This document shows positions 1-14,880 of a DNA stretch of 64,000 nt, piece after piece. The stretch covers positions 640,001 through 704,000 of the forward strand of contig CM000434.1 in the NCBI GenBank assembly GCA_000165345.1, given 5' to 3'. How positions within the stretch are numbered: the first letter of the stretch is position 1; each line of letters opens with the position of its first letter. The position numbers were made by a program, and so were the translations under genes. The notes below the pieces were generated by a model. That model was not told the DNA's origin, did no database searches, and was given only the letters and a program-made list of their open reading frames with translations.

Positions 1-13
1 AATCTTTTTTGCC

Positions 14-41
14 TGGCGCCTATATGGAAAGTTCACCCGCC
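14..41. promoter_or_regulatory. E2F-like motifs (TGGCGCC, CACCCGCC) upstream of the OTU gene
   Basis: Direct read of the sequence; 75 to 100 bp upstream of ATG 116. Confidence 0.4.
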
Positions 42-115
42 TTATTTCTTTTTATGTCGAAAGAAGCAGAATTGTCAAAAGGAAATGTTGTAATGAGAAA
101 AACTAGAAACAGCAG

Positions 116-1315
116 ATGAGAGAGGAATGCTTGCTTCCATATGAAGTGAGAGTGAAAAATATTGAAGGAGATGGTAACTGTTTGTTTAGGTCTATAGGAA
201 GCCAGCTTTACGGGGAGAGTGAACACCATGAAATAATTAGATCTGCCTGCATGGATTACGTAGATTTAAACAAGGAATCATTTTCTGGATTTGTACATGA
301 ATATTCTTCAATTGAAAAATATATTCAAGAGAAGAGAAAACTGGGGGTCTGGGCTGATAATATTGAAGTTCAAGCACTAAGTGACCTGTATCGTATTCCA
401 ATATATATATTTGAAAAGGTCAGAAATAGTAAACTGAATGCTAGCTTATTAGAGAAGCATAGACTAGAAGGCTTTTCTGGTACTATGTCAGAAAATATTT
501 TCTATGAGAACAAGGAATTTGTTTATAAGTTACTTTGTAAGATAGAGCCAAGGCATTCAAGTTTCCTTGACCAGATTAAGAATTATTATTCAAATAGTAG
601 GCCAATTCGATTGCTTTATTACAATGACTTACATTATGACTCTTTATTTTATAGAAGAGAGCATCAAACCCCAATAATTAACAAGGATATTGGAATAATT
701 GAGGCTGAGAGCATTAAGAACCTTAAAGTTTACAGAGCCATTGCAAAACAAAAAGAAAAAAGTAGTAAGTTTCCTGTTAGAGGCTCTAAAATAAAAACCG
801 ACCAGGTCGGTCATTTTAATCATACATCATATGCACTACTAAGGAAGAAGGCAATTAAAAAGTTCCCTGTTAATTATGGATCTAGCAGTGAAAGTGACAA
901 CTATGTCGCAAAATCGCCATTTTTCCTATCCGTTAAGAATAAATACCGAGACGAACCCGAATCATTTTTCGAGGGGAATTACCTAGATAAAATCTCTGAG
1001 GGTGAAACTCATTTTGAAAAGCTTCACCCCAAGAGCAAAGAGCCACATAGCAAGTTTATATCTGGGCCCAAATCATTTTCCGAAAGGGCAATAGGAAAGC
1101 CCGCCTGTGTTTCAAAAATTAAGTCATTAAATAATACTCATTTGGGAGTAGTTGATAGATACGCCAGGGATGTTCAACTCTCTTCTCATCAAAAGGAATT
1201 TAAAAAGCTGTTGATTAACGATTCACCTCGATTGTCTTCAACCCCAAATCCAAGAAAAAAGTGTGTTGCAATATATTGTCCACAAATTTTGAAACAAAGT
1301 GCGTTTAGAAATTAA
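116..1315 (+). CDS. OTU-domain cysteine protease (deubiquitinase-like)
   Basis: 399-aa ORF. The N-terminal GDGNCLFRS motif is the OTU catalytic-Cys box, and a His is present in the downstream YNDLHYDS region. E2F-like TGGCGCC and CACCCGCC lie within 100 bp upstream. Confidence 0.7.
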   Translation: MREECLLPYEVRVKNIEGDGNCLFRSIGSQLYGESEHHEIIRSACMDYVDLNKESFSGFVHEYSSIEKYIQEKRKLGVWADNIEVQALSDLYRIPIYIFEKVRNSKLNASLLEKHRLEGFSGTMSENIFYENKEFVYKLLCKIEPRHSSFLDQIKNYYSNSRPIRLLYYNDLHYDSLFYRREHQTPIINKDIGIIEAESIKNLKVYRAIAKQKEKSSKFPVRGSKIKTDQVGHFNHTSYALLRKKAIKKFPVNYGSSSESDNYVAKSPFFLSVKNKYRDEPESFFEGNYLDKISEGETHFEKLHPKSKEPHSKFISGPKSFSERAIGKPACVSKIKSLNNTHLGVVDRYARDVQLSSHQKEFKKLLINDSPRLSSTPNPRKKCVAIYCPQILKQSAFRN

Positions 1316-1323
1316 ATTTAAAT

Positions 1324-2409
1324 ATGGACAGTAGAACTTGGTTTGAAGGAGTTTCTGACTGTTCCAAAAAAATAATTGAAGCTTTAAAAAGTGATAATCA
1401 CTTGTATGGGAGAGATTCTAATCATTTTGCAAAAGAAGGTTTATCGATATTTTATAGTTATGACTTATGCTCGAGTTCTTGCTCAGTTCCAACTGTAGTT
1501 ACAGAATCAAACACTTTATCATCTGAAACAAAAGATAACAGAATGCTATTCTCTTCAGTAGATGAGGAGACTCTATTGCTTCTTCAAGAAGCATTAAAAT
1601 ACCATTATTCTGGAGGAGAAGGAACTTTCATTAATTTGGGAACCCCAGTTAATGAGATAAATGGGCTAAATTCAGCTCATAAGATAGTGCATAGCCCTGA
1701 AATTACGGTTCCTAGTGATGATAAAGAAACAAAGGTTAATACCGAAACTGAAGAAGATATTTTTGAAGGTGTTGGGAGCATTTTTGACCATAAAGAGCAT
1801 AAAAGAACACGAACTAGATCTCTAGAAAGATCTTTAACTCCAGATTTAGATGAGTTTATTGAGAATGTTTACGATTTTAAAGAAGAAGCATTGCATAACA
1901 CTAATGTTCAATCGTCTATTCAATCTCAAGTGATACAAACTAGAAAAGATCAAAATTCTGCTCAAAGAAGCTTCGGATTAGCTTCTAGGACGAAAAATAG
2001 AAAGAGAAATATTGACTACTCATTGTTGTCAAGAAAAGGTCCTATGAGTGCTCCTGATAAGAGCTTTGAAAGCCTTAAACTTCCTCAATTTGAAGATTCT
2101 TCTTCTTCTTATGCAGAATGTTACCTAGAAGTTGACGGTGTATCACATTACGAAACTCATCATGAGGAGTTAGAATCTTCAAGTATTAGATCTCAAAACA
2201 AAGAGATGGAAGATTCATCTTCGGCTCGTGATAAATCAAAAAGAAATATCGATAAATACAAACAAAGGAGGAAAGATAAATCTGTTCATCAGGAATGGAA
2301 GTCTATCCAAAAAATTATGAACAAGCAAAATTTTAGGTCTCTTGAAACTTTTAAGAGTTTAATTAGTGATAACAATGGTTCAATTAAGAATAATTTTGGG
2401 CAAATATAA
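1324..2409 (+). CDS. hypothetical Ser/Glu-rich protein
   Basis: 361-aa ORF starting 8 bp after the stop of the OTU ORF. Acidic, low-complexity, no recognisable domain. Confidence 0.4.
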   Translation: MDSRTWFEGVSDCSKKIIEALKSDNHLYGRDSNHFAKEGLSIFYSYDLCSSSCSVPTVVTESNTLSSETKDNRMLFSSVDEETLLLLQEALKYHYSGGEGTFINLGTPVNEINGLNSAHKIVHSPEITVPSDDKETKVNTETEEDIFEGVGSIFDHKEHKRTRTRSLERSLTPDLDEFIENVYDFKEEALHNTNVQSSIQSQVIQTRKDQNSAQRSFGLASRTKNRKRNIDYSLLSRKGPMSAPDKSFESLKLPQFEDSSSSYAECYLEVDGVSHYETHHEELESSSIRSQNKEMEDSSSARDKSKRNIDKYKQRRKDKSVHQEWKSIQKIMNKQNFRSLETFKSLISDNNGSIKNNFGQI

Positions 2410-2492
2410 ATTTAGAGGGGTAGGGAGTTGTAATTTATAAATAACAGAAAGGTATAACTAACAAGATTATCAACACCATTTGATTTTTCTAA

Positions 2493-3956
2493 TTAATTGG
2501 TTGTCCTAGTTAGCTCAAGCTTGCTCCTCAGTTCTTCATTTTCTTTCCTCAGAATTTCCAATTTACGAACAGAAACGTCTAATAAGCTAACTAAAACAGC
2601 GTTTTGTTCCTCACTTTTCTCCAACTCATCCATTAGATATTCAATCTTCTCCCTATCACCTCCTGCTTTAAGCTTATCTTTAATTCCTTGCAGAATTTTC
2701 CTGCGAATTAGGCTATCTAGACCTGTCTTGAACTCTTCTATAGACTGATCTGCCTTTTTAGGCTCTTGATCCTCCGCTAAAGACTGTGGTTTCCGGGTTT
2801 CTGAAGATTTTTGAACCAAGGCTCCAATATCAGATAAAGCAATAGAATGCGAGCTACTGCAAACAACTTGAACAATATTCTTGTTTTGTAAGATTGGGTG
2901 TTTAGAAGGCATATTTGGATGTATTCCTTGAATTCCATGTCCAATATTTTTTGTCATACCCCAAGTATATATATCTCCAACATCGGAAAGAGCTACTGAA
3001 TGGGAATTACCGCATGAGATATCCACAATAAACGCTTTTTCGAGGTTAGAAAGTCTTTTTGGGGACAAAAAGTCGTGTTCTGGACCATTAAAAATGTGGC
3101 CAAGTCTTCCTCCTTGTCCCCAAGTATATACCTTGCCACACTTTGTGACAGCAGCTGAGTGTTGACTTCCTAAAGAAACCTTTGTTATCTGAATATCTTC
3201 CAAAGGTCCTTCTAATAGTCTTGGAATCAAAACGTCGTCAGTTGACCCAAAGCCAAGCTTTCCAAAAGCCCCTCCTCCGAACATATATAACTTTCCAGTA
3301 ACAAGCAAAATTGCTGTGTGATGTCCTCCACATGATATCTCTTTAATTGGAAGCCCTGCCAAACTTTCTATAAGCTTTGGAGTAAATATATCTTGAGTAT
3401 CTCCATGGCCTAATCGTCCTTGGAGCCCCAGACCCCAAGTTAATGCCTTTTTATCATCAGTTAAACACCCTGTATGGTAACTTCCGCATGAAACCTGTAT
3501 TACTTTCTCTCCTTCCAAAGCTTTAACTTTCATTGGTTGGGAGACTACATTATTTGAAATACTTAACTCAAATTGTCCATGCCCAAGCTTGCCATTTTTA
3601 CTACAACCCCAAGTATAAAGCTCACCATTACTCAAGATTGCTGCTGTATGTCTATCGGAGCAAGCAACTTGAATAACATTTTTAAGACTTAGATTTACTC
3701 TAGGTACCAAACAATCCTCTAAATTACCAAAACCTAGTTGGCCGCATCCTCCATATCCCCATAGGATTAAATCACCAGAATTTGTTATTGCTGCTGAGTA
3801 ATTTGACCCACAGCTTACCTTTGATATGCTGCTTAGATGTCTAAGTCCATCAACTAGATGTGGCCCGGGACTTACTTCCTCGCCTTTAGAACCATGCTGT
3901 CCATATTCGGTTGAACCCCACACCACTACTCCAGATTTTGATAAATTCTGTCCCAT
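2493..3956 (-). CDS. RCC1-repeat protein with N-myristoylation signal and C-terminal coiled coil
   Basis: 487 aa. Repeated WG.GG.GQLG / GHG motifs fit a seven-blade RCC1 propeller. The protein begins MGQNLSK, an MGxxxS myristoylation consensus. The C-terminal 90 aa are heptad-rich. Confidence 0.8.
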   Translation of the reverse strand: MGQNLSKSGVVVWGSTEYGQHGSKGEEVSPGPHLVDGLRHLSSISKVSCGSNYSAAITNSGDLILWGYGGCGQLGFGNLEDCLVPRVNLSLKNVIQVACSDRHTAAILSNGELYTWGCSKNGKLGHGQFELSISNNVVSQPMKVKALEGEKVIQVSCGSYHTGCLTDDKKALTWGLGLQGRLGHGDTQDIFTPKLIESLAGLPIKEISCGGHHTAILLVTGKLYMFGGGAFGKLGFGSTDDVLIPRLLEGPLEDIQITKVSLGSQHSAAVTKCGKVYTWGQGGRLGHIFNGPEHDFLSPKRLSNLEKAFIVDISCGNSHSVALSDVGDIYTWGMTKNIGHGIQGIHPNMPSKHPILQNKNIVQVVCSSSHSIALSDIGALVQKSSETRKPQSLAEDQEPKKADQSIEEFKTGLDSLIRRKILQGIKDKLKAGGDREKIEYLMDELEKSEEQNAVLVSLLDVSVRKLEILRKENEELRSKLELTRTTN

Positions 3957-4412
3957 CCTCGAATTTTAGTCAAACACAGGTATTAGTTTTCAAATTCACA
4001 ATATTATCTGAATTCAATAGCCGATGAACAATTTCCGATTATTTCTTGTTCTAAAAATTATATATTTAAATTTCACTTTGAAGTTCTTACTTTATTAGAA
4101 ATTGATATTCATGAGCAAATTGAAGTAGGTTAAGAATTTTTAGCTCGAGGGCTTTAGACTATTTCATCGATATTAACAAATAGAAATTCCTTTACTAGAA
4201 ATGTCAATGTTTTCTAATTTGCAGTATTTAATGTTGAATTTTTTTTGATCTTTTGTGCGCTAAAATTCATTTACATTTTTTACTGTGAGTGCCTCATTTC
4301 TTAGAGAACAGAGAAATAAAAGAATAAGATTTTGCTCTTGAAGAATTTTGATTAGAAATGAATTATCTCTAAAAGTTGTTCAACTCCAGATCTTGTTTAC
4401 GAGAAAATCAAA

Positions 4413-6611
4413 ATGTACGAAATTGAAAGTCACTTTTTTGAAAATAAACTACAAAGCTGGTTCTCTAAAACTTGTATTTCTAACTTCCCAGAAATTCAAA
4501 AACTCATTCTAGAATTTTTATTCAGCTTTAAAACATCCCAAAAACTTTCTTTAGTTAATAAAGAAGGTCTTTCCTTCTACAGAAGTATCCAAAAGGCAAC
4601 TTTGGGATGCATTAAGGAACTGAATACGCTTGAACACCAAACATGGATGAACTCAAACCCAGATTTGTGGCTATCTTGGTTATTAATGGGCAGAAATAAT
4701 TCTAAAGAGAACGATACTTCAACTCTTATTCCATTGGATCCGAGAATTGTCATGAGGATTTTGTTTAACTTTAGGAAGCTTTATCCTGTAAGCTATAAAA
4801 CCAGAATTATCAAAGACACTAATGGGGAACCATTTTTAAATGTTGAACTTTCAGCTATTTCTCTTGGAAATCTGGAAAATGATCTTGAAGACCCAAAAAA
4901 ACCTTTCTCCTCTATATATGACATGTTTTCTTCTAAAAGAATGGTTTTTGGTGTTGACTTGGTATATGGACAAAGAATTTACCAATTTGACTCTGAAAGA
5001 GACTCTGGAAGTGGAGAAATTATAATTAGTGTTCAACCTGAACATATTTTTGATGTTTTATCTCATAAAGAATTCTCTGAACACCTTTACTCAACCCTAT
5101 TAGGACTTGAAAGAAAATTTTGTTTAGGAGACTGGTCAGGTTACTTTAGTAATAATGCAGGGAAGGAAATGTATGGAAAATTCATGAAATCAGTTTTACT
5201 CCCTCTGAAGACTTTTGAGAAAACTTGTAGAAGGCCAACCTTTCCCTTTGTTTCCATTCTTGCTACTTCACATTTATGTAAAGGAAGAGAAGCTGGACGA
5301 GGATCCGAAAATATCAAATCTTCACTTTACGAATCTTCTATAGATCTTCTGGAAGAGATGTCTCACCAAGTTCTGGATGACTCTAGCTGTAGTAGGATGG
5401 TTGAGGATGCTATATTATACAAGTCTCCATCTTTTGCATTCTTTTTAAGCTCCTCCTGTCTAACAGAAAGTACATTCCAGCTCATTATTGACTCTGTTTC
5501 TCAGAAAGAAAAAAGTTTCTTTCTTGGTAAAAATTTGGAGCCTCTGGAAGAGCTTTATGAGACAAATCAATTGGATCTGGTTTGGGAGAATTTTGATGAG
5601 AATTCTCCTCTATTTAAAAATAGTTACAAAAGTAAGCATAGGCCACCATGGAGAACTTCTATTGATAATATTATCAATGCAATGCAAGAAAAGCAATCCC
5701 AAATCATTTCCCAGCAACCTTCCATTGCCTTCAATCATCAGACACTTAGAAATGATGCTGGACATATTAGTAGAGTAAACAGGCCCTCTTTTAGCTATTC
5801 TAACGAAAATTCAAGCACCGAAAGAAACTTCGAACATGATGATAACGATGAAGATAGAACTTATCTTGATGAAGGAAACTCTTTTGATATTTCTCCAAGT
5901 TCAGAACAAAACCATGTGGAAAGTCCAAGTCTTGTTGCTTCTGGGTTTGTCATGGGAGTTAGATGTCTTCCTGCATCTACAGCTATCACTTCTTTAGGAT
6001 CAATTATTGGAAATGGAAATCCAGGTCGTTCTGGTTCAATTAATAGAGTTAGAGGAACGAATTTGTTGGGAAATCAAAGTCAAAGATTATCCATTCCTCG
6101 TTCTGATATAACTGGGAGATTAAGTTCGTGTCCTACATTTAGTTCAATTGCGACAAGTTGGGGTACTCCAGTTCCCATCACTAGAACAATCCCAATTGAT
6201 GATATTCTTGGAAGAAGAAGAGAATCAATTCATAGTACTCTGGATCCAGAAAAAAACGATCAGAATGAACTAATTCTCAGTGAGATTAGAGTTAAATATA
6301 ATTTGGATAGTGATGAGGACGAGGTTCAAAATGGAAAGAATCTTATTAATGGCAAAGATAAGGATGAAGAATCGGAGAATTTTAAAGATAAGCAAAAATT
6401 AGATATTTATCATTTAGAGGAAAAAAGTAATAGCGAACTTGAACAGGCTTTAATTGAAGAAGAAGTTTTGGGATCATTTACTAATATGCAAATCAAAGAC
6501 TCTGATGCATCAATTCTTGCAAAGGAAACCCTAAAATCCTGGAAATATGTCAATTATGACTTTGATGAAGAATTGGAAATGGAGTCGGAGGAATATGAAA
6601 ATGAGGAGTAA
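4413..6611 (+). CDS. hypothetical protein with an acidic C-terminus
   Basis: 732-aa uninterrupted ORF; no family recognised by eye. Confidence 0.5.
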   Translation: MYEIESHFFENKLQSWFSKTCISNFPEIQKLILEFLFSFKTSQKLSLVNKEGLSFYRSIQKATLGCIKELNTLEHQTWMNSNPDLWLSWLLMGRNNSKENDTSTLIPLDPRIVMRILFNFRKLYPVSYKTRIIKDTNGEPFLNVELSAISLGNLENDLEDPKKPFSSIYDMFSSKRMVFGVDLVYGQRIYQFDSERDSGSGEIIISVQPEHIFDVLSHKEFSEHLYSTLLGLERKFCLGDWSGYFSNNAGKEMYGKFMKSVLLPLKTFEKTCRRPTFPFVSILATSHLCKGREAGRGSENIKSSLYESSIDLLEEMSHQVLDDSSCSRMVEDAILYKSPSFAFFLSSSCLTESTFQLIIDSVSQKEKSFFLGKNLEPLEELYETNQLDLVWENFDENSPLFKNSYKSKHRPPWRTSIDNIINAMQEKQSQIISQQPSIAFNHQTLRNDAGHISRVNRPSFSYSNENSSTERNFEHDDNDEDRTYLDEGNSFDISPSSEQNHVESPSLVASGFVMGVRCLPASTAITSLGSIIGNGNPGRSGSINRVRGTNLLGNQSQRLSIPRSDITGRLSSCPTFSSIATSWGTPVPITRTIPIDDILGRRRESIHSTLDPEKNDQNELILSEIRVKYNLDSDEDEVQNGKNLINGKDKDEESENFKDKQKLDIYHLEEKSNSELEQALIEEEVLGSFTNMQIKDSDASILAKETLKSWKYVNYDFDEELEMESEEYENEE

Positions 6612-6744
6612 ATATTTCAATTCAAGAAACAGGTTAAAGAACTTATTATATTACAATTCATTATCATAAGACTTTTTTTAATGCATTATGTAATTTTCCT
6701 TTTCTAATTGGAAATATTACTCGAACAACAAATTATTTAAATGT

Positions 6745-9039
6745 CTAAGCCTTTACTAGGGAGGACTTTCCTCCTCCTCCTTGGATTCCTTTAACAATAT
6801 TAGGAGGAGCTAATTTAGCAAAAATAGGCTTTAGTTTGGAGATATTTTCAATAGTTTTGGTTAATGAGTTACATTGCATTAGTAACTTTGTATACTTTGT
6901 TTTTGCATTGATTAGTGATCTTTCAAGCTGTTCAATTCTTTCTTCCTTCCTCAACAACCTTCTCTCATTTAGTTGACTTTGTGATTTTAGGTTTGAATTC
7001 TGTTCAACCATCTTTTGGTAAAGCTTTCCAAGTTGTTCCATATTTGTATCTAGTTGAGACATTCTTTCAAGCATACTTTTAGTATCTTGGTCATTAATAT
7101 CTAACTTTTTAGCACCTTTATTGCTTTCCTTTAATTGGAGCTCTAAATTAGCAATTCTAGCAACATTATCTTCAATAGTTTCTAATAATGCTTTATGTTC
7201 AGAGCTCCAAGCTGCATCTTCTTTTGGGTCTGTATTGCTTCTAATTGCAAGTAAGTATTCTCTAAGTTGTTGTATTTCACTAGAAAGACTTTGAAAAGCT
7301 TTGTTAGATTCATTTTCCTTTTCTTCATTTCTTCTTTGTGACTCCTCTGACTTATATTCTTCAATTCTGGCTTCTAAGTCGTGAATATGAATCTGTGATT
7401 GCTCAAGTTCTCCTATTAAAGACTTATTTTTGAGTTGAAGATGTTCAACAGTTTCGGCTTGGTCCTGCTGTTGATATTTTGTTTGACTTAACTCTTGGAT
7501 TAAATCGGAAAGTTTGATATTCAAATTTTCCTTTTCTTCAGACATTAACTTGAGATTATTTTCTTTTTCTGAAATCTCTTGCTTTAATTGAGTAATCTTT
7601 TCGCTGTTTTCTTTAAGTTGTTGTTTGGCTTCCTCCAACTCATCCAATTCATCATTATCTAAAGTTCTCATATTTAAAGTGGTCTTTTCAGATCCAGGAA
7701 TGATTCCTTCCTGAAGCTCTTTCCTTTCTCCAATATTCAAAGAAGAATTAAGTATAATACTACCTCCTTTATCTCCAGATGGTTTATTTTCAGGAAGTTC
7801 ACCTCCAAGCTTTTTAACTAACTCTTCGAGAGTTTGAATATAATTGTTTCTCTCTGCCAATTTTCTTTGTGCTGAGTTAAGAAGAACTTGTAATTGTTCA
7901 ACAGAGTATTGTTGGTTGACTTTAGGAGCATTCTTAACCATTTTAGCTCTGATTCCAAATCTTAAAGTACCAATAGTCTCAGATTCATTTACAATACTTG
8001 GAGAACAAGTAACAATTAAAGCTGTAAGAGAGTTCCCACCAAGGGAATTCTGAAGAATTCTTGTTAATTTCGAATCACGATAAGGAATAAAGTTTTTTGT
8101 ATTATCTGTTAGAGCATTGATAACATTTCCCAAGCAACTTAAAGATTTGTTAATGGTTTTAGCTTCATCCAAAGTTAATCCTTCTGCTCCAGTTTTACTA
8201 ATTTTTTCCGATCCTGCAAGATCAACAAGGAAAAGTTTTCCAACTTTAATACTAGAATCAAATACATTCTTTTGCTGAAGTTGTAACATAAAAATCAAAT
8301 GAGATCTTGACGAATATGAATTCATATTTGTAGATGCCACAGCTCTATGCTTATGTCCAAGAGCCATTAACTCAAAAACTTCCTCTGGAGAAGTCACAAA
8401 GTATTCACTTAAGTCCTTTACGTAAATACCATGTATCTTATCTTCATGTATTCTCAGATTACTTTTTGTCCCACTTGTGTCTAATAGATCTCTAATTCTT
8501 TCCATATAAACCTCGCAAATAGAAACTTTTAGTTGAAACTCAATATGTTCCTCAGCATTACTAATGGTTTCAAATACATCATGAACCATACGAGGAATAA
8601 CTCCCATCTTCTCATTGTCTCCAATTATACCTTCCATTGTAAATGTCTTACCACTAGAAGTCTGTCCATAAGCTAAAACTGTTCCATTAATACCTTTAAA
8701 TAGTTGATCTACAATTGGTTTTGCAGCAGTCTTATAAACATAACTTTGATTAGTATCCATAGGAAAAATATGATCTAAATAGAAAGTCCTTTCTTTTGTT
8801 TCACTATCACTTTTTGATTCTGATGAGCTAATCTCTATACATTGTTCAGATCTCACATTTACACACAGCAAGCCATTTCCATGGGTCTTTTCTGCTTCAT
8901 TTGGAGGTCTAACTCTGCAATATACATGGACTCCAGAACCTGAACCATGCTCATTACCTGTTGTTCCTGAAGTTCCGGATACATTTTCTATATTTCCTAA
9001 ATTCTCGTTTTCTCCCATAATGCTACTACAATTCTTCAA
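6745..9039 (-). CDS. kinesin heavy chain-like motor protein (kinesin-1-like)
   Basis: 764 aa. N-terminal motor with P-loop GQTSSGKT, switch I SSRSHLIF and switch II LVDLAGSE. A long coiled-coil stalk follows. The tail ends PIFAKLAPP...GGGGKS, resembling the kinesin-1 IAK/GGGG tail. Confidence 0.85.
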   Translation of the reverse strand: MKNCSSIMGENENLGNIENVSGTSGTTGNEHGSGSGVHVYCRVRPPNEAEKTHGNGLLCVNVRSEQCIEISSSESKSDSETKERTFYLDHIFPMDTNQSYVYKTAAKPIVDQLFKGINGTVLAYGQTSSGKTFTMEGIIGDNEKMGVIPRMVHDVFETISNAEEHIEFQLKVSICEVYMERIRDLLDTSGTKSNLRIHEDKIHGIYVKDLSEYFVTSPEEVFELMALGHKHRAVASTNMNSYSSRSHLIFMLQLQQKNVFDSSIKVGKLFLVDLAGSEKISKTGAEGLTLDEAKTINKSLSCLGNVINALTDNTKNFIPYRDSKLTRILQNSLGGNSLTALIVTCSPSIVNESETIGTLRFGIRAKMVKNAPKVNQQYSVEQLQVLLNSAQRKLAERNNYIQTLEELVKKLGGELPENKPSGDKGGSIILNSSLNIGERKELQEGIIPGSEKTTLNMRTLDNDELDELEEAKQQLKENSEKITQLKQEISEKENNLKLMSEEKENLNIKLSDLIQELSQTKYQQQDQAETVEHLQLKNKSLIGELEQSQIHIHDLEARIEEYKSEESQRRNEEKENESNKAFQSLSSEIQQLREYLLAIRSNTDPKEDAAWSSEHKALLETIEDNVARIANLELQLKESNKGAKKLDINDQDTKSMLERMSQLDTNMEQLGKLYQKMVEQNSNLKSQSQLNERRLLRKEERIEQLERSLINAKTKYTKLLMQCNSLTKTIENISKLKPIFAKLAPPNIVKGIQGGGGKSSLVKA

Positions 9040-9585
9040 TGAGGAGGTAGCCTTTGATTTTATAGAAATAATTAATATAGCCCAGTTGTTTTTTGAGGTG
9101 GCTCTCTAATAATACTTTACAGAGTTTCTAGGTAAGTTCCCCTTAAAACACTGTTCAGTCAAACTTTACCTCCTATTATCCGAACCTTTAAAACATTGGC
9201 CAAACCTATTATTTTTCCTACTTTCCTCCTTTGAAATCCTAACCTTTTTTTTTCCTAATAAAATAAATCTTTATTTTCTAACATTCATGTAAAACTTGAC
9301 TTTCGGCTACATGCCGTCCAAGTGTGATTAAAATTCAGAATTCAACCTACACACCCTCAATTTACATTGTGGCGGGAAATTTGTTAATAAAAAAAAAAAT
9401 TGTGAATTTCTAATTAATGAAAAAAATAAAATAAATTTAGATGTAATGAATGAGGAAATAGTAAACAATTGTAAATTTAGAATCACTTAACAATTACATA
9501 CTTTTATAATCCAAATTCAAAGGGATTACTAGCTTTAAACACAAAACACTAATCGACTTATTTGAAAAGGAATTACAAAAATGAA

Positions 9586-9950
9586 TCAGATTCCGAGTTT
9601 GTCTGCAATAATGAGTAGGTCTATTGCTTGCGAATCCTCAATCTGAAATTCCCGTGGCTCTTTCTGTTTAGATGAATATTGATGTTTGTACTCTAAATAC
9701 TCAATAACCTTCTTCATTTGACTTGAGTTAATGTAGTTAAATTTCATGCTTCCCGCTTCAAATAACTCATCTTTAATATTAGTAATATATTCAGCCAAGA
9801 CTGGTTTTAGTTGAAATTTCACGCCATCCACACTATAATATAAAGGTAATTAGTTTGAACTTCTTTTTAATTGAGATTGTAACATTCATAATACAACCTA
9901 ACTTACCAAATCAAGTCCAAATATCTCTCTTTTGCTGAGTTCTCAGACAT
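9586..9950 (-). CDS. Elongin C (SKP1-fold BTB protein), 2 exons
   Basis: Exon 1 is 9950..9907 (MSENSAKERYLDLI...). A 74-nt GTAAGT..ATAG intron spans 9906..9833. Exon 2 is 9832..9586. The spliced product YLDLICVDGVKFQLKPVLAEYITNIKDEL...EFQIEDSQAIDLLIIADKLGI aligns with Elongin C (YVKLISSDGHEFIVKRE...EFPIAPEIALELLMAANFL). The ORF track shows only exon 2. Confidence 0.7.
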
Positions 9951-10037
9951 GTTGAGCTTTTTCTGTTTCTGAGATAAGATTTGTCCAACAATCCCAGCTA
10001 CAATTAATAATCCCACAACATGACTCTTTATTAATTT

Positions 10038-10047
10038 AGGCGGGAAG
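10038..10047. promoter_or_regulatory. E2F-like GGCGGGAAGG, promoter of Elongin C (minus strand)
   Basis: About 90 bp upstream of ATG 9950. Confidence 0.4.
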
Positions 10048-10355
10048 GTGAGATTTTTTTTTTTCAGTTTTGATTTAATAAATTTTTGATTTCGAAACGG
10101 GAATAAATAATTATTTTAAATATTTTCTATTTAGATTGTTATGGAATGATAAAATTCTTAATAATTGACATATTAATTTTGAATATTTATTTTATAGTTT
10201 CCATCTTTCTGAAACTTCAAATTTCAACATAAAATCTACAGATTGCAAATACAACTTTCTGTGTGATTATTTTCTTATAAAAATGTTATAATTCCTTCAA
10301 TTATCTCTTTTATTACCCTTTTTCTTTCTTAATAACAAAAAAAATTAGTGCATAA

Positions 10356-10370
10356 TTTTTGGCGCCAACT
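10356..10370. promoter_or_regulatory. E2F-like TTTTTGGCGCCAACT, promoter of SRP14
   Basis: About 85 bp upstream of ATG 10452. Confidence 0.45.
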
Positions 10371-10451
10371 CAAAAATGACTAAGGAGGAAATTCGAAAAA
10401 TATTATTAGGGCCGAAACTAAGAAAAATATAAATAAGAATTATATGGCAAA

Positions 10452-10834
10452 ATGAAAGAGTTTGATGTGAGTGGGTTCATTAATGAATTGAACTCAATTC
10501 TCAGAGATGAGAAGAATAAGAAACCTGTAAGGATCACAATAAAGAGATGTAAGTTGTTAACATTTTTAGCTTTAAGCGATAAAGTTAACTTATAAATTCA
10601 TTTATCACTTTAGATTATCCTGAAATTAAGGGATGCAAGAAAAAACGCAAAGCAATTGAGGAGGAAAAGACCAAGGATAACACGGATAAACATTATCACT
10701 TGGTTAGGGCAACAGATGGAAAAAAGAGGAAGTCGAGAGTCGTAATAAAGAATGAAAAAGACTCAAATACACTTGTCTCTGAACTTAGCAAAAGTTTAGT
10801 TAAAGCTGATATCCAAAAAAAGGTTAGAAAATAA
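10452..10834 (+). CDS. SRP14: signal recognition particle 14 kDa protein, 2 exons
   Basis: Exon 1 is 10452..10548. The intron 10549..10613 has a GTAAGT donor and TTTAG acceptor. Exon 2 is 10614..10834. The product contains HYHLVRATDGKKRKSRVVIKNE, matching the SRP14 LLRATDGKKKISTVV core, and has a basic C-terminus. It is absent from the ORF track. Confidence 0.7.
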
Positions 10835-10883
10835 ATACAAAGCATTAACCGTTTGGAGATTCTACCAATGCTAGTCAACCTAA

Positions 10884-11966
10884 TCACTTGTTAATTTCAC
10901 TGTTTAAATGAGAAGCAATAATAGTTTCAAAGTGATCTCTGGCATGTTCTATATTATATAAGGCAGATGCAGAGGTTACGCCTAATTTAACATTAATTAG
11001 ATGATATTTTATAGTAACTTGGTTATTTATTAACTTACTTTTATCGTTGATTACTACTAATATATATGAATTTTGAGTGAATCTTTTGATTATACTAGAG
11101 AAATTAGGGGTTTCCAAGTTTATACCAACAAAATTGGTCTGTGACTTTGCGCAAGTTAGCTTAAATTGCTTACAAATATTGGAAATTCTTTCAAAACGTG
11201 ATCTGTGATGCTTTGAATCTAAAGTATTCGAATTCTCAGCATGGGAAATCACAAGAAATGTAGACTTCTCGAAGAGAACTAATTCCACAGCATTACAAGA
11301 TTCCGCTAAAATCTTGAGATTTTTCTCCAAGAGTCCTACATTTGGTATCAATGCATATACAATTTCGCTCCAAGCTGCAAAAAGAGTTTCATCCCAAATC
11401 GTTGTTGGAAAAACTCTGTAATTCATGTTAGATGCAACCCTTCCTATTTCTCTTTCATAATAGTTTATAGCAGATTCCCTCTCTATTGCTGAAAGCTTAT
11501 CCATCTTGTGAACTAAACAAAATAAATGGGATTTAGGTGAAAGAAGCTTCAAATTCTCCACTGTGCTTTTAAAATAAGCAAAATCTTGTTCAATGTCTTT
11601 TGTTGCGTGCTTGGAAGAGTAGTCCTTTCGAACTTCTAATACATAAATTAATACTTCTGTGCTTCTAAATATATGTTCTCTTTGACTCTCAAAATAATTC
11701 TCCATAAAAATATCCTAAAAAACAGCTAATAAGAAAAACTACCTTGTAATTAATCTTCAAAAACTTACTTGGCCTCCACAATCCCAAAGACTTAACACCA
11801 TATTCCCAAAGAACCTTAAGTGTGAATGCTCTATATTATTTGTTGCTGTTAATCTACTTGTATCTTTTGGAAGATAATTCGCAAAGATTATACTCCTCAT
11901 AGAAGTTTTACCTGCTCCTGCTCGTCCCATTAACAATACTTTCTTTCTATCGGAGTTCATTTTCAC
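10884..11966 (-). CDS. Rag/Gtr1-family small GTPase (RagA/B-like), 2 exons
   Basis: Exon 1 is 11966..11769 and ends WDCGGQ. A 54-nt intron (GTAAGT...TTTTTAG) spans 11768..11715. Exon 2 is 11714..10884 and starts DIFMENYF. The spliced junction reproduces the conserved GGQDTFMENYF of RagA. The P-loop GRAGAGKTS and HKMD motif are present. Confidence 0.85.
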
Positions 11967-12017
11967 TAATTTTTATTTACACATTTCCCCATGTACCTTA
12001 AATATATGGCAAGAAAA

Positions 12018-12027
12018 GGCGCCAAAG
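12018..12027. promoter_or_regulatory. E2F-like GGCGCCAAAG in the divergent RagA / 12232 promoter
   Basis: 52 bp upstream of the RagA ATG at 11966 (minus strand). Confidence 0.45.
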
Positions 12028-12231
12028 TTCTCATAAGGAGTCATAAGTCAATAGCAATATTAAAATGTAAACGAAGTCCTAATTTATTAAGGAGAGTAAA
12101 TTACAGTTTAATGATACTCTTGATTTATTTAATAGGAAAAAGTATCTGGTCTATTACTTGAAGCTATATCTTGGGGAATCAATAGATCAAAAGAAGGTAA
12201 GAATTATTAGATTTGCCATATATAAGTCAAA

Positions 12232-14880
12232 ATGATTCAAATTCCCGAAAAAACTCAGAAAGACTCTTCAATTTATGGCTTAATTGGTGAATTTGACTTT
12301 TTTGGGGCCTCTGATTCAGATTTTGGAGAGCTTGTCCACACTATTGTTGACCAAATTGGAGGAGAAAATACCAATAATGAAAAGTTGTTTGATGTATTAA
12401 AGAAGAAATTAACCATTCTAGATAATGGGACATTAAACTTGTTTGCTCCTACTAAGTCTTCAAAGCCAGATATTAAGGATATTGTTCTACCCGATGAATC
12501 ATATTTTGACTGTAAGTCAAGTCTGAAGAAAGAGTTGAAAAGTATTTGCCAAAATGCTCAAATAGATTCACAGATTTTTCATTCAAAAGATCTTTCCATT
12601 TTAAGGTTTGTCTTTTCCTATCATAAGTTTTTTAACCCTCAAAATGAGACTAGATATCCCCAAGATTATGATTTTTATGTTATTAAGCATCCCAATACTG
12701 ACTTTAATGGATGCAGGACTTTTGCTATCAAGAAGAAACATGGAAAATCCTCTAAACAGGATGAATCTGATAATGAACAACAACTTATTCCAATTAGTTA
12801 TGTGTCATCTGTTGACAATATTACTACAAAATGGGAAAAGGCAGGAAAAAGGATTATTAACTTAATGCAAGCTATTGTTAACATTGTTCCTAGTGATATT
12901 AAGTTATTTATTACTACTATGCAGGATATTTATCCAATAGCTTTTAGAAATTCTTTGGATTCTTATATTTTGTACTCAAAGCTATTATTTCATGGAATTA
13001 AACTAATTCCTTCAACAATGAGTATTTTACTCAGATTTCTCATTAATAAACTCATCTCTTTAGAGTCTGAGATTCATTCCAAAAATCCAAATAACTATAC
13101 TAAAGAAAGGTTCGAAAAATGGAGACAAGAAGAACTTCAGACAGTTGCAATTAAGATCAGGAGAGGAGAATATGCAGACATTAACTCTGCAAAGTCTTAT
13201 ATACAAGATTTGGATGGTCTAAAAGCTCAATTTTCTCAAAGGTTTACAGAGGAAGATATTGATAGAAATGCTCAGGTTATTGATAATGTTATGAAAGGAC
13301 TATTTGATTTTATTTCTGAAGTATATGAAAATGGTTTCCAATATACTAAAATCTTTGTAAACTCTACTGAAACTTCATATTCTACTCAAACCAAAAACTT
13401 GAAAGTTCCCAGCAATGTTTCAAATATTCTCTCAAGTAGTGATTTGGAATCTTCTGCAGTAGAAGATATTGTTGTTTCAGGATATGGAAAGAAAGAGGAG
13501 TTGTTATACAAACAATTTGTTGATCTTGAAAGCACAATTTTGAATATATTTGAAACTCAAATTCTTGCAATAGAAAGTTGTCAATTCGTTAATTATATTC
13601 CTATATATTTGGTTTGTCATTGCGATTCTTGGTGCGAGAAATTCCTTCAAATTATCTTTAAGAAGTTGTTCAATCCCCATGAGACACTTATCATCAGAGA
13701 ATCCTCAGTAGATTACATTGTATTCTTTGTAACAAACTACCAAATAGTTTGCAACTTTAAATTTTACACACCTTGTATTAAATATTTAATGCAGTTTCTT
13801 CACGACTTTGTTGCTCATTGGAGTATTGAAAAATCTGATCAGAACTTAAGCTCCCAAGAAATTCTTCATTCAAATAAAAGATCAGGATTTAAAAGAAGTT
13901 TTGGAGGTGATTCTCAGAAACATTCACATCTTACTTTAAGAAATTTGTTCGGTTTATATTGTCATGTTGTATTTTCTCTTTGTAAATTTGTTTCAGTTAT
14001 AATAAATGCCATTTTAAGCGAAAATATCCAAGATAGTTCTTTTGAAGATTTATGCTTTCTCATTGACTCTTTACTAAACATGAACCGAGGTTTTATTCCA
14101 TTTATATTATGTGGAGATTTATCTCCAATTAATAATATAGACCCAAGTACTCTTACAATTTTTCTAAAATCTGTTATAATACTGATTTACAAGGTGATTT
14201 CTATTCAAAAGGAGAAATTAAGCATCTCAAAATATTATGGTGCTATTAAGCTTATTTCTGAACTCTTGAATTCCAATAGTAACAAGGAGATAGTTAAAGT
14301 TGAATCAAAGTTATTCTTAGATAAATTATGGCTATGGCATTCTGGAAAATACGTAAACAAATTCAAAACTTCCAACTCTAATTTAATAGAAGACCAAGAT
14401 ATTTCATGCCATATTTTAGAGCTCCTAAAGATGATAGAAGATGAAATGGAAATTCATTCTGAAGAAGAGCCAGAACCTCCAAATCAAGAAATCGATATCC
14501 CAGAAAAAAAATATGGTGAAATGGAGTCATCTATTCTTCCAGAACAATCCCTTTGGGAGTATGTATGGGGAGATGTTCCAGTTTCACATGAAGAATTGGA
14601 ACAAGAGCTTTATGTGACAAAAAACAAAATGTATAAAGAAGATTTGGACAAACAGCTCGACTACTCAAGGGAAGAGTTGAATGGACAAGATGAGGACAAA
14701 GAACCCAAAAGAGGCCTATGCTCAAAGAAACCAAGTTCTTCAGGAATGTCATTATTAGACACTCTTTTATCCTCGGATGCTTTCAAACGTGGAGAAGCTA
14801 TTCTACATAGTTATCAACGAAAACATTCCCCTTCAGGGAAAAAGATGAATAAATTTTCTAGGAAATCTAGGCTATTTTAG
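12232..14880 (+). CDS. hypothetical 882-aa protein
   Basis: Long uninterrupted ORF with an acidic segment near the C-terminus. No confident family assignment. Confidence 0.5.
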   Translation: MIQIPEKTQKDSSIYGLIGEFDFFGASDSDFGELVHTIVDQIGGENTNNEKLFDVLKKKLTILDNGTLNLFAPTKSSKPDIKDIVLPDESYFDCKSSLKKELKSICQNAQIDSQIFHSKDLSILRFVFSYHKFFNPQNETRYPQDYDFYVIKHPNTDFNGCRTFAIKKKHGKSSKQDESDNEQQLIPISYVSSVDNITTKWEKAGKRIINLMQAIVNIVPSDIKLFITTMQDIYPIAFRNSLDSYILYSKLLFHGIKLIPSTMSILLRFLINKLISLESEIHSKNPNNYTKERFEKWRQEELQTVAIKIRRGEYADINSAKSYIQDLDGLKAQFSQRFTEEDIDRNAQVIDNVMKGLFDFISEVYENGFQYTKIFVNSTETSYSTQTKNLKVPSNVSNILSSSDLESSAVEDIVVSGYGKKEELLYKQFVDLESTILNIFETQILAIESCQFVNYIPIYLVCHCDSWCEKFLQIIFKKLFNPHETLIIRESSVDYIVFFVTNYQIVCNFKFYTPCIKYLMQFLHDFVAHWSIEKSDQNLSSQEILHSNKRSGFKRSFGGDSQKHSHLTLRNLFGLYCHVVFSLCKFVSVIINAILSENIQDSSFEDLCFLIDSLLNMNRGFIPFILCGDLSPINNIDPSTLTIFLKSVIILIYKVISIQKEKLSISKYYGAIKLISELLNSNSNKEIVKVESKLFLDKLWLWHSGKYVNKFKTSNSNLIEDQDISCHILELLKMIEDEMEIHSEEEPEPPNQEIDIPEKKYGEMESSILPEQSLWEYVWGDVPVSHEELEQELYVTKNKMYKEDLDKQLDYSREELNGQDEDKEPKRGLCSKKPSSSGMSLLDTLLSSDAFKRGEAILHSYQRKHSPSGKKMNKFSRKSRLF

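What the first reader, a model, noticed from the sequence alone, without database searches (positions are those of the whole stretch)
9586..10834. Divergent pair of two-exon mini-genes (Elongin C and SRP14) that the ORF track misses or truncates
Elongin C (minus strand) and SRP14 (plus strand) start 500 bp apart. Each has one short intron near the 5' end and one E2F-like site about 90 bp upstream of its own ATG (10038 and 10356). SRP14 is invisible in the ORF track. Elongin C is shown without its first 15 codons. A spurious minus-strand ORF (10696..10887) overlaps SRP14 instead.
Basis: partly seen in the sequence, partly recalled or inferred. Interest (0 to 1): 0.5.

Follow-up and report, generated by a model that had tools for sequence, protein, structure and literature searches.

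The report
Known Cryptosporidium Elongin C / SRP14 gene pair

Summary
The window is Cryptosporidium parvum chromosome 6; 9000-12000 is 100% identical to CP141123.1.

- **Gene models.** Splicing out 9906..9833 (minus strand, 74 nt) and 10549..10613 (plus strand, 65 nt), both GTAAGT...TAG, gives proteins of 96 and 105 aa. These are residue-for-residue identical to deposited C. parvum proteins QOY41162.1 (Elongin-C / SKP1-BTB-POZ) and QOY41163.1 (SRP14).
- **SRP14.** It passes Pfam PF02290, and its predicted fold matches SRP14 chains.
- **Elongin C.** It gets no Pfam Skp1_POZ hit. A profile search of the PDB and a fold search return only Elongin C (TM 0.74).
- **Introns.** Position and phase are the same in all seven Cryptosporidium species examined.
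- **E2F-like boxes.** GGCGGGAA at 10039 and TTGGCGCC at 10359 each lie about 90 bp upstream of their own ATG. They form the only long invariant blocks in a five-species alignment of the 501-bp spacer. They match the published C. parvum E2F-like motifs 3 and 4 and are 13-45 times enriched in the window.

All of this is already known. The only added value is a list of annotation gaps in other assemblies: Elongin C, SRP14 or the neighbouring RagA gene is missing or mis-modelled in several of them. Interest is low.

The parts
9586..9832 (-). Elongin C exon 2 (last base of codon 15 through codon 96, plus the stop at 9586-9588)
   Evidence: It equals the 81-aa ORF plus one base. The spliced product is an exact match to QOY41162.1.
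9833..9906 (-). Elongin C intron, 74 nt, GTAAGT...TATAG, phase 2, 23% GC
   Evidence: Same position and phase in C. meleagridis, C. canis and C. felis, with lengths 74, 86 and 81 nt. The C. ubiquitum gene span implies 76 nt. Introns are also present in C. ryanae and C. serpentis.
9907..9950 (-). Elongin C exon 1 coding part (MSENSAKERYLDLI plus 2 nt). It encodes the first beta strand of the BTB/POZ-like fold.
   Evidence: It aligns to human Elongin C MYVKLIS. It forms strand E11-14 in the model.
10036..10046 (-). E2F-like box upstream of Elongin C. It reads TTCCCGCCTAA on the gene's strand and lies 89 bp from the ATG.
   Evidence: The block TTAGGCG.G is invariant in 5 species. It is one mismatch from the published motif 4, TTTGGCGGGAAV. 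The word is enriched 6 against 0.31 expected.
9951..10451 (.). 501-bp AT-rich divergent spacer (24.6% GC) between the two start codons
   Evidence: The length is 495-504 bp in five species (coordinates used). No Rfam match.
10359..10368 (+). Palindromic E2F-like box TTGGCGCCAA upstream of SRP14, 84-93 bp from the ATG
   Evidence: GGCGCCA is invariant in 5 species. It matches the published motif 3, DTTGSCGCCH. TGGCGCCA is enriched 5 against 0.11 expected.
10452..10548 (+). SRP14 exon 1 (codons 1-32 plus 1 nt)
   Evidence: It aligns to the human SRP14 N-terminus.
10549..10613 (+). SRP14 intron, 65 nt, GTAAGT...TTTAG, phase 1, 23% GC
   Evidence: Same position and phase in 5 species, with lengths 65, 65, 65, 56 and 59 nt. 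Also present in C. ryanae and C. serpentis.
10614..10834 (+). SRP14 exon 2 (to the stop at 10832-10834)
   Evidence: The spliced product is an exact match to QOY41163.1. Pfam PF02290 scores above its cut-off.
10696..10887 (-). Spurious antisense ORF (63 aa, GTG start) over SRP14 exon 2
   Evidence: No Pfam hit. The open frame is not conserved in C. canis or C. felis.

Best explanation
This is the annotated head-to-head gene pair on Cryptosporidium parvum chromosome 6. Elongin C is on the minus strand (96 aa) and SRP14 on the plus strand (105 aa). Each gene has one short, canonical GT-AG spliceosomal intron near its 5' end.

Shown here: the exon-intron models, their identity to deposited proteins, the protein family and fold assignments, and the conservation of intron positions, gene order and the two GC-rich boxes.

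Inferred from what is established for these families:
- SRP14 pairs with SRP9 on the Alu domain of SRP RNA and contributes to elongation arrest during co-translational targeting.
- Elongin C is the small BTB/POZ-fold adaptor that links BC-box substrate receptors to a cullin-RING ubiquitin ligase, and possibly to an Elongin A-type factor.
- Each gene is transcribed outward from its own E2F/DP-type box, which sits about 90 bp upstream of its ATG. The two boxes are 313 bp apart, with no conserved sequence between them. This fits the published picture that E2F motifs mark most C. parvum promoters and open-chromatin peaks.
For: - Gene models and reading frames.
- Exact identity of both products to C. 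parvum GenBank proteins, and 100% DNA identity of window 9000-12000 to CP141123.1.
- Annotated gene spans of 365 and 383 nt equal the models.
- SRP14: Pfam PF02290 at 36 bits against a cut-off of 27; PDB sequence hits are SRP14 chains apart from three weak ribosomal bL33 matches (E ~0.6-1) at the bottom of the profile list; model pLDDT 77, with the top 12 fold hits all SRP14.
- Elongin C: significant PDB hits are all Elongin-C, with no Skp1; model pLDDT 69, with the top 50 fold hits all Elongin C, TM 0.74; the profile recovers proteins of about 100 aa, most of those scanned carrying Skp1_POZ, including one named Elongin-C from Vitrella.
- Intron position and phase are conserved while intron length varies by non-multiples of 3.
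- Gene order kinesin / Elongin C / SRP14 / RagA is conserved across the genus.
- The boxes are invariant in 5 species, enriched and confined to non-coding DNA, and match the published motifs 3 and 4. ATAC-seq peaks are dominated by E2F motifs, and more than half of them are annotated as bidirectional.
- Intron GC (23%), spacer GC (24.6%) and their sizes match genome-wide values (22%, 25%, 99 bp, 552 bp): PMC4637869.
- Introns of the CPATCC annotation are stated to be 100% supported by RNA-seq: PMC8744675.
- An SRP9 gene was reported in C. parvum (cgd7_new_03).
Against: - No transcript evidence was seen directly. The exon-junction sequences were absent from the metagenome contig collection, but that collection is not expected to hold Cryptosporidium cDNA.
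- The Elongin C peptide itself has no Pfam Skp1_POZ hit, and its structure model has only moderate confidence (pLDDT 69).
- Binding of E2F/DP to these boxes, the transcription start sites and the protein partners (Elongin B, cullin, SRP9, SRP RNA) were not tested.
- C. serpentis has no GGCGSS word in the equivalent spacer. In C. ryanae the boxes sit about 190-230 bp from the SRP14 ATG. The promoter architecture is therefore conserved only among the closer intestinal species.
Confidence: 0.93

Rival explanations
1. Elongin C is a single-exon gene. Either the 81-aa ORF is the whole protein, or the protein starts inside what is here called the intron. This is how C. hominis TU502 XP_665667.1 (81 aa), C. 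felis KAF7457072.1 (103 aa) and a Logan-derived 109-aa call are modelled.
For: Such models exist in public data.
Against: - The 81-aa ORF starts with GTG, which is not a normal eukaryotic start codon.
- It lacks the first beta strand, which aligns to human MYVKLIS.
- An exon 1 of exactly 44 nt encoding M..E..Y/F..LI, followed by GT(A/G)AG, is found in C. parvum, C. meleagridis, C. canis and C. felis, with a conserved exon-1 peptide also in C. ubiquitum.
- The sequences read from inside the intron are not conserved between species.
Confidence: 0.03
2. The spacer is one shared bidirectional promoter: a single nucleosome-free region in which both boxes act on both genes. This contrasts with two independent unidirectional promoters.
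For: More than half of C. parvum ATAC-seq regulatory peaks are annotated as bidirectional promoters. The spacer is only 501 bp, and its length is conserved at 495-504 bp.
Against: The boxes are 313 bp apart. Each is proximal to its own ATG at about 90 bp, and no invariant sequence lies between them. No data here decide between the two readings. This is a refinement of the main explanation, not a contradiction of it.
Confidence: 0.35
3. The two GC-rich words are chance occurrences, or reflect composition only, and have no regulatory role.
For: Each is just an 8-mer. E2F/DP binding has not been demonstrated at this locus.
Against: The words are 13-45 times enriched over dinucleotide-preserving shuffles. 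All 18 of 18 sites are non-coding. They are the only long invariant blocks in the five-species spacer alignment, whose mean column identity is 64%.
Confidence: 0.03
4. The 96-aa protein is a Skp1 (SCF adaptor) or a generic BTB protein, not Elongin C.
For: GenBank names it 'SKP1/BTB/POZ domain containing protein' and 'Skp1 family protein'. Elongin C and Skp1 share Pfam family PF03931.
Against: No Skp1 chain appears at E<=1 in either the sequence or the profile search of the PDB, whereas 22 Elongin-C sequences do. The top 50 fold hits are all Elongin C. At 96 aa there is no room for the Skp1 C-terminal F-box-binding domain.
Confidence: 0.03

Closest known systems
C. parvum QOY41162.1 / WRK32882.1 (CPATCC_002817; UniRef 'Elongin-C', A0A7S7LGP2)
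   Same: 100% identical over all 96 residues. The annotated gene span of 365 nt equals the two-exon model.
   Different: Nothing. It is the same gene.
C. parvum QOY41163.1 / KAL5368154.1 (CPHLJ_6g2795, SRP14 subunit)
   Same: 100% identical over all 105 residues. The annotated gene span of 383 nt equals the two-exon model.
   Different: Nothing. It is the same gene.
Human and yeast Elongin C (ELOC; Elc1; PDB 1vcb_B, 5zb2_B)
   Same: Same size (96 aa against 96-112). The alignment covers nearly the full length (residues 9-94). The fold matches with TM 0.74 at about 33% identity in the structural alignment.
   Different: The protein is too divergent for Pfam Skp1_POZ to detect. Like yeast Elc1, it lacks the roughly 8-residue loop that human Elongin C has after the second helix (gap in the alignment). 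Its partners are unknown.
Mammalian SRP14 (Pfam PF02290; PDB 4uyk_B, 1e8o_B)
   Same: The predicted fold matches SRP14 chains first. The LVRATDGKKRKS strand motif aligns to human LLRATDGKKKIS. The C-terminus is basic.
   Different: It has no Ala/Thr-rich C-terminal tail (known for primate SRP14; from memory). The internal loop at residues 34-58 is lysine- and glutamate-rich and is predicted to be helical.
C. parvum E2F-like upstream motifs 3 (DTTGSCGCCH) and 4 (TTTGGCGGGAAV), Oberstaller et al. 2013
   Same: The SRP14 box TTTGGCGCCA fits motif 3 exactly. The Elongin C box TTAGGCGGGAAG fits motif 4 with one mismatch.
   Different: Nothing new. This locus adds a five-species footprint of the two boxes.

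Membership tests
Elongin C (Skp1/BTB-POZ superfamily) | Significant sequence similarity to characterised Elongin C rather than to Skp1 | tested here: met
   phmmer against the PDB: the best 22 hits are all Elongin-C, best E 3.4e-4. A 7-sequence profile gives E 1.1e-5 over residues 9-94, with no Skp1 hit.
Elongin C (Skp1/BTB-POZ superfamily) | Pfam PF03931 (Skp1_POZ) match above the gathering score | tested here: not met
   No PF03931 hit at E<=1 for the C. parvum protein. Eight of the ten profile-recovered relatives scanned do pass it; the two that do not are the C. felis and C. ryanae orthologues. C. serpentis has a faint hit on record. I read this as a sensitivity limit for a divergent, AT-biased sequence.
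Elongin C (Skp1/BTB-POZ superfamily) | A single BTB/POZ-like alpha/beta domain of about 100 aa, without the Skp1 C-terminal domain | tested here: met
   The protein is 96 aa. The AF2 model has pLDDT 69. The top 50 Foldseek PDB hits are all Elongin C chains, with TM 0.74 and rmsd 2.2 A.
Elongin C (Skp1/BTB-POZ superfamily) | Binds Elongin B, BC-box proteins and Cul2/Cul5 | not testable with these tools
   No access to the rest of the genome and no interaction data. A literature search found nothing on Cryptosporidium Elongin C.
SRP14 (Pfam PF02290) | Pfam match above the gathering score | tested here: met
   36.0 bits against a cut-off of 27, E 9.6e-9, residues 7-80.
SRP14 (Pfam PF02290) | SRP9/14-type alpha-beta-beta-beta-alpha fold | tested here: met
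   The AF2 model has pLDDT 77 and the elements helix 6-18, strands 26-33, 60-67 and 71-77, and helix 80-103, plus an extra loop helix (41-53). The top 12 PDB fold hits are SRP14, followed by SRP9.
SRP14 (Pfam PF02290) | An SRP9 partner and an SRP RNA Alu domain are present in the organism | not tested
   The supplement of PMC4637869 lists a newly found C. parvum SRP9 gene, cgd7_new_03. The SRP RNA was not examined.
Canonical spliceosomal GT-AG intron | GT...AG boundaries with a GTAAGT-type donor, stop codons in frame, low GC, and conserved position and phase across species | tested here: met
Canonical spliceosomal GT-AG intron | Junction-spanning transcript reads | not testable with these tools
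   The junction sequences are absent from metagenome contigs. The indirect support is the statement that introns of the CPATCC annotation are 100% supported by RNA-seq.
E2F/DP binding site (C. parvum motifs 3 and 4) | Sequence fits the consensus, is enriched in upstream DNA, and is conserved across species | tested here: met
E2F/DP binding site (C. parvum motifs 3 and 4) | Occupied by E2F/DP and required for transcription | not testable with these tools
   The literature itself notes that ChIP-type evidence is lacking. ATAC-seq gives only an association.

The most novel reading that the evidence does not exclude
In the intestinal Cryptosporidium clade, the two E2F-like boxes are the only sequence-constrained elements of a length-constrained (495-504 bp) spacer. 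Each box alone would position and drive a unidirectional core promoter about 90 bp from its ATG. E2F/DP would then be acting as a general promoter-defining factor for housekeeping genes, not as a cell-cycle switch. This compact pair would be a clean natural test bed for that idea.
Probability: 0.3. Interest if true: 0.3.

Novelty: already known. Interest (0 to 1): 0.1.

Why it matters
It matters little for biology. Both genes, their introns and the E2F-like motif class are already in GenBank, UniRef and the literature.

The practical value is for annotation quality. Prokaryote-style ORF tracks, and several deposited Cryptosporidium annotations, miss or mis-model these short two-exon genes:
- Elongin C is absent from two C. 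parvum assemblies and one C. canis assembly.
- Elongin C is mis-started in C. felis and truncated in C. hominis TU502.
- SRP14 is not called in C. ryanae.
- The RagA neighbour has three conflicting models.

The five-species footprint is also a tidy single-locus illustration of how strongly E2F-like boxes are constrained in Cryptosporidium promoters.

Tried and rejected
- Pfam scan of the Elongin C peptide found no Skp1_POZ hit.
- Direct transcript evidence was sought by scanning metagenome contigs for both exon-exon junction sequences. There were no matches, which is uninformative.
- Alternative GT-AG combinations that keep an open frame exist, for example SRP14 with a 75-nt exon 1 and a 104-nt intron, or a 97-nt exon 1 and a 104-nt intron. 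They were rejected because they delete residues that are invariant in Cryptosporidium and align to human SRP14 (VRITIKRY...).
- A hidden RNA gene in the spacer was rejected: no Rfam match at E<=0.1 in 8500-12500.
- The antisense ORF 10696..10887 as a gene was rejected.
- Literature searches for cgd6_2790, cgd6_2795 and cgd6_2800, and for Cryptosporidium Elongin C, found nothing specific. The supplement of PMC4637869 has no SRP14 or Elongin entry.
- The upstream ATGs in the SRP14 leader were considered as regulatory uORFs. The peptide is not conserved and the ATG is absent from C. canis and C. felis, so this was not pursued.

Full report
**Source of the window.** The window is 33% GC. Positions 9000-12000 are 100% identical to Cryptosporidium parvum chromosome 6, GCA_035232765.1 CP141123.1. 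The local gene order is kinesin (minus strand, 6745..9018), Elongin C (minus), SRP14 (plus), RagA/Gtr1 GTPase (minus), RRN3 (plus). The same order is found in C. parvum, C. tyzzeri, C. meleagridis, C. ubiquitum, C. canis, C. felis, C. ryanae and C. serpentis.

**Checking the observation.**
- The Elongin C ATG is at 9950 (minus strand) and the SRP14 ATG at 10452, so 501 bp lie between them.
- Removing 9906..9833 (74 nt, GTAAGT...TATAG) joins a 44-nt exon 1 to 9832..9586 and gives a 96-aa protein.
- Removing 10549..10613 (65 nt, GTAAGT...TTTAG) joins a 97-nt exon 1 to 10614..10834 and gives a 105-aa protein.
- Without splicing, both frames stop almost at once.
- The mechanical ORF list shows Elongin C as an 81-aa ORF starting at GTG, so 15 codons are missing. 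SRP14 appears only as 47- and 44-aa fragments. A 63-aa antisense ORF at 10696..10887 is also listed.
- That antisense ORF has no Pfam hit. Its open frame is not kept in C. canis or C. felis. I regard it as a by-product of the lysine- and glutamate-rich sense codons.

**Identity of the two genes.** Both spliced products are already in public databases, residue for residue. The 96-aa protein equals C. parvum QOY41162.1 / WRK32882.1, named 'SKP1/BTB/POZ domain containing protein' in GenBank and 'Elongin-C' in UniRef. The 105-aa protein equals QOY41163.1 / KAL5368154.1 and others, named 'Signal recognition particle SRP14 subunit', locus tag CPHLJ_6g2795. The annotated gene spans of 365 and 383 nt equal the two-exon models.

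**SRP14 family tests.** Pfam PF02290 scores 36 bits against a gathering score of 27. The significant PDB sequence and profile hits are all SRP14 chains; three ribosomal bL33 chains appear only at E ~0.6-1 in the profile search. The AlphaFold model has pLDDT 77, and its top 12 PDB fold hits are SRP14, followed by the related SRP9.

**Elongin C family tests.** This case is less direct, because the peptide has no Pfam Skp1_POZ hit at E<=1. The other evidence is consistent:
- phmmer against the PDB returns only Elongin-C among its first 22 hits; the best is 5zb2_B (recognised from memory as yeast Elc1) at E 3.4e-4.
- A 7-sequence Cryptosporidium profile raises this to E 1.1e-5 over residues 9-94 and still finds no Skp1.
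- The structure model has pLDDT 69, and its top 50 PDB fold hits are all Elongin C chains, with TM 0.74 and rmsd 2.2 A.
- The same profile, searched against 1.8 billion representative proteins, recovers only proteins of about 70-150 aa. Eight of the ten scanned carry Skp1_POZ; the C. felis and C. ryanae orthologues do not. One hit, from Vitrella, is named Elongin-C.
- Exon 1 encodes the first beta strand. RYLDLI aligns to human MYVKLI and forms strand 11-14 in the model. The 81-aa ORF form would therefore be a truncated fold.

**Are the introns real?** No transcript data were available here. Scans of metagenome contigs for both exon-exon junctions found nothing, which is uninformative. The comparative evidence is strong.
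- Elongin C exon 1 is 44 nt with the intron in phase 2 in C. parvum, C. meleagridis, C. canis and C. felis, with intron lengths of 74, 74, 86 and 81 nt. The script's donor pattern produced no model for C. ubiquitum, but its annotated gene span implies a 76-nt intron and its exon-1 peptide is conserved.
- SRP14 exon 1 is 97 nt with the intron in phase 1 in all five species, with intron lengths of 65, 65, 65, 56 and 59 nt.
- C. ryanae and the gastric species C. serpentis also have one intron in each gene.
- Intron GC (23%), spacer GC (24.6%) and spacer length (501 bp) match the genome-wide figures of 22%, 25% and 552-589 bp. The two introns (65 and 74 nt) are somewhat shorter than the genome mean of 84-99 bp (PMC4637869).
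- The CPATCC annotation that holds these two models states that its introns are 100% supported by RNA-seq (PMC8744675).

**The E2F-like boxes.** GGCGGGAA lies at 10039-10046, 89 bp from the Elongin C ATG, and reads TTCCCGCC on that gene's strand. TTGGCGCCAA lies at 10359-10368, a palindrome 84-93 bp from the SRP14 ATG.
- They are not chance words. GGCGGGAA occurs 6 times against 0.31 expected, TGGCGCCA 5 times against 0.11, and GGCGSSA 23 times against 1.7. No shuffle reached these counts.
- All 18 distinct sites fall in the 25% of the window that lies outside long ATG ORFs. Those near a recognisable start lie roughly 50-350 bp upstream of it.
- In a five-species alignment of the spacer (mean column identity 64%), the only long invariant blocks are TTAGGCG.G and GGCGCCA, which are exactly these two boxes.
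- They match the published C. parvum E2F-like motif 4 (TTTGGCGGGAAV, one mismatch) and motif 3 (DTTGSCGCCH, exact). These were reported as the most over-represented upstream motifs in the genome (PMC3734150).
- A 2025 preprint finds E2F motifs to dominate ATAC-seq peaks, more than half of which are annotated as bidirectional promoters.
- The architecture is not universal in the genus. In C. ryanae the boxes lie about 190-230 bp from the SRP14 ATG, and C. serpentis has no GGCGSS word in its spacer.

**How it most likely works.** The gene structures, family assignments and conservation are shown here. The rest is inferred.
- Each gene is probably transcribed outward from its own E2F/DP-type box, or the two boxes share one open-chromatin region. 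This could not be decided.
- After removal of one short intron, SRP14 would pair with SRP9 on the Alu domain of SRP RNA for elongation arrest. A C. parvum SRP9 gene is reported.
- Elongin C would act as the adaptor between BC-box receptors and a cullin-RING ligase. Its partners were not examined.

**Verdict.** The only new by-products are annotation inconsistencies in other public assemblies, listed under the passing observations, and a neat phylogenetic footprint of the two boxes.

Noticed in passing
window 10884..11960 (minus strand): The RagA/Gtr1 GTPase gene next to SRP14 is also truncated in the ORF track, which shows 273 aa at 10884..11705. The ATG at 11960 gives a P-loop N-terminus ([20 protein letters not shown]). 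A 54-nt GTAAGT...TTTTAG intron at about 11768..11715 joins WDCGGQ to DIFMENYF, for 340 aa in total. Public C. parvum models disagree: 301, 321 and 340 aa. The 301- and 321-aa models appear to use a 111-nt intron that removes conserved residues, and the 301-aa model also lacks the P-loop.
   Followed up: partly
L010 about 1837..2245 (minus strand), C. ryanae GCA_009792415.2: No SRP14 gene is called between RagA and Elongin C in this assembly. tblastn finds a two-exon SRP14 there, with exon 1 MFETDASGFVNELASILQSDRNGRSTRITIKK.
   Followed up: partly
L006, L008 (C. parvum GCA_031892065.1, GCA_048859185.1); L003 (C. canis GCA_027243985.1); L004 3136..3447 (C. felis): Elongin C is not called at all in two C. 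parvum assemblies and one C. canis assembly. The C. felis model (103 aa, intronless) starts inside the intron, and another C. canis model (151 aa) has an unsupported N-terminal extension. A conserved 44-nt exon 1 is present in both C. canis and C. felis.
   Followed up: yes
window 10376..10432 and 10445..10456: There are upstream ATGs in the likely SRP14 leader. One opens an 18-codon uORF (MTKEEIRKILLGPKLRKI) 76 nt upstream. Its ATG is kept in C. meleagridis and C. ubiquitum, but the peptide is not conserved and the ATG is absent from C. canis and C. felis. The other is a 3-codon uORF, ATGGCAAAATGA, overlapping the main ATG. Whether they are transcribed depends on the unknown start site.
   Followed up: partly
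window 9371..9378: A third GGCGGGAA box lies between the Elongin C stop (9586) and the kinesin ATG (9018), 353 bp upstream of kinesin. The Elongin C 3' end and the kinesin promoter therefore share a 567-bp interval. A similar box sits in the equivalent interval in C. canis and C. felis.
   Followed up: partly
window 12018..12026: An E2F-like box (TTTGGCGCC on the minus strand) lies about 60 bp upstream of the RagA ATG (11960), in the divergent spacer shared with RRN3. The arrangement resembles that of the Elongin C / SRP14 pair.
   Followed up: no
window 10350..10358: GTGCATAAT, immediately 5' of the SRP14 box, contains the TGCAT core reported as an ApiAP2 motif. It is conserved in C. parvum, C. 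meleagridis and C. ubiquitum but not in C. canis or C. felis.
   Followed up: no
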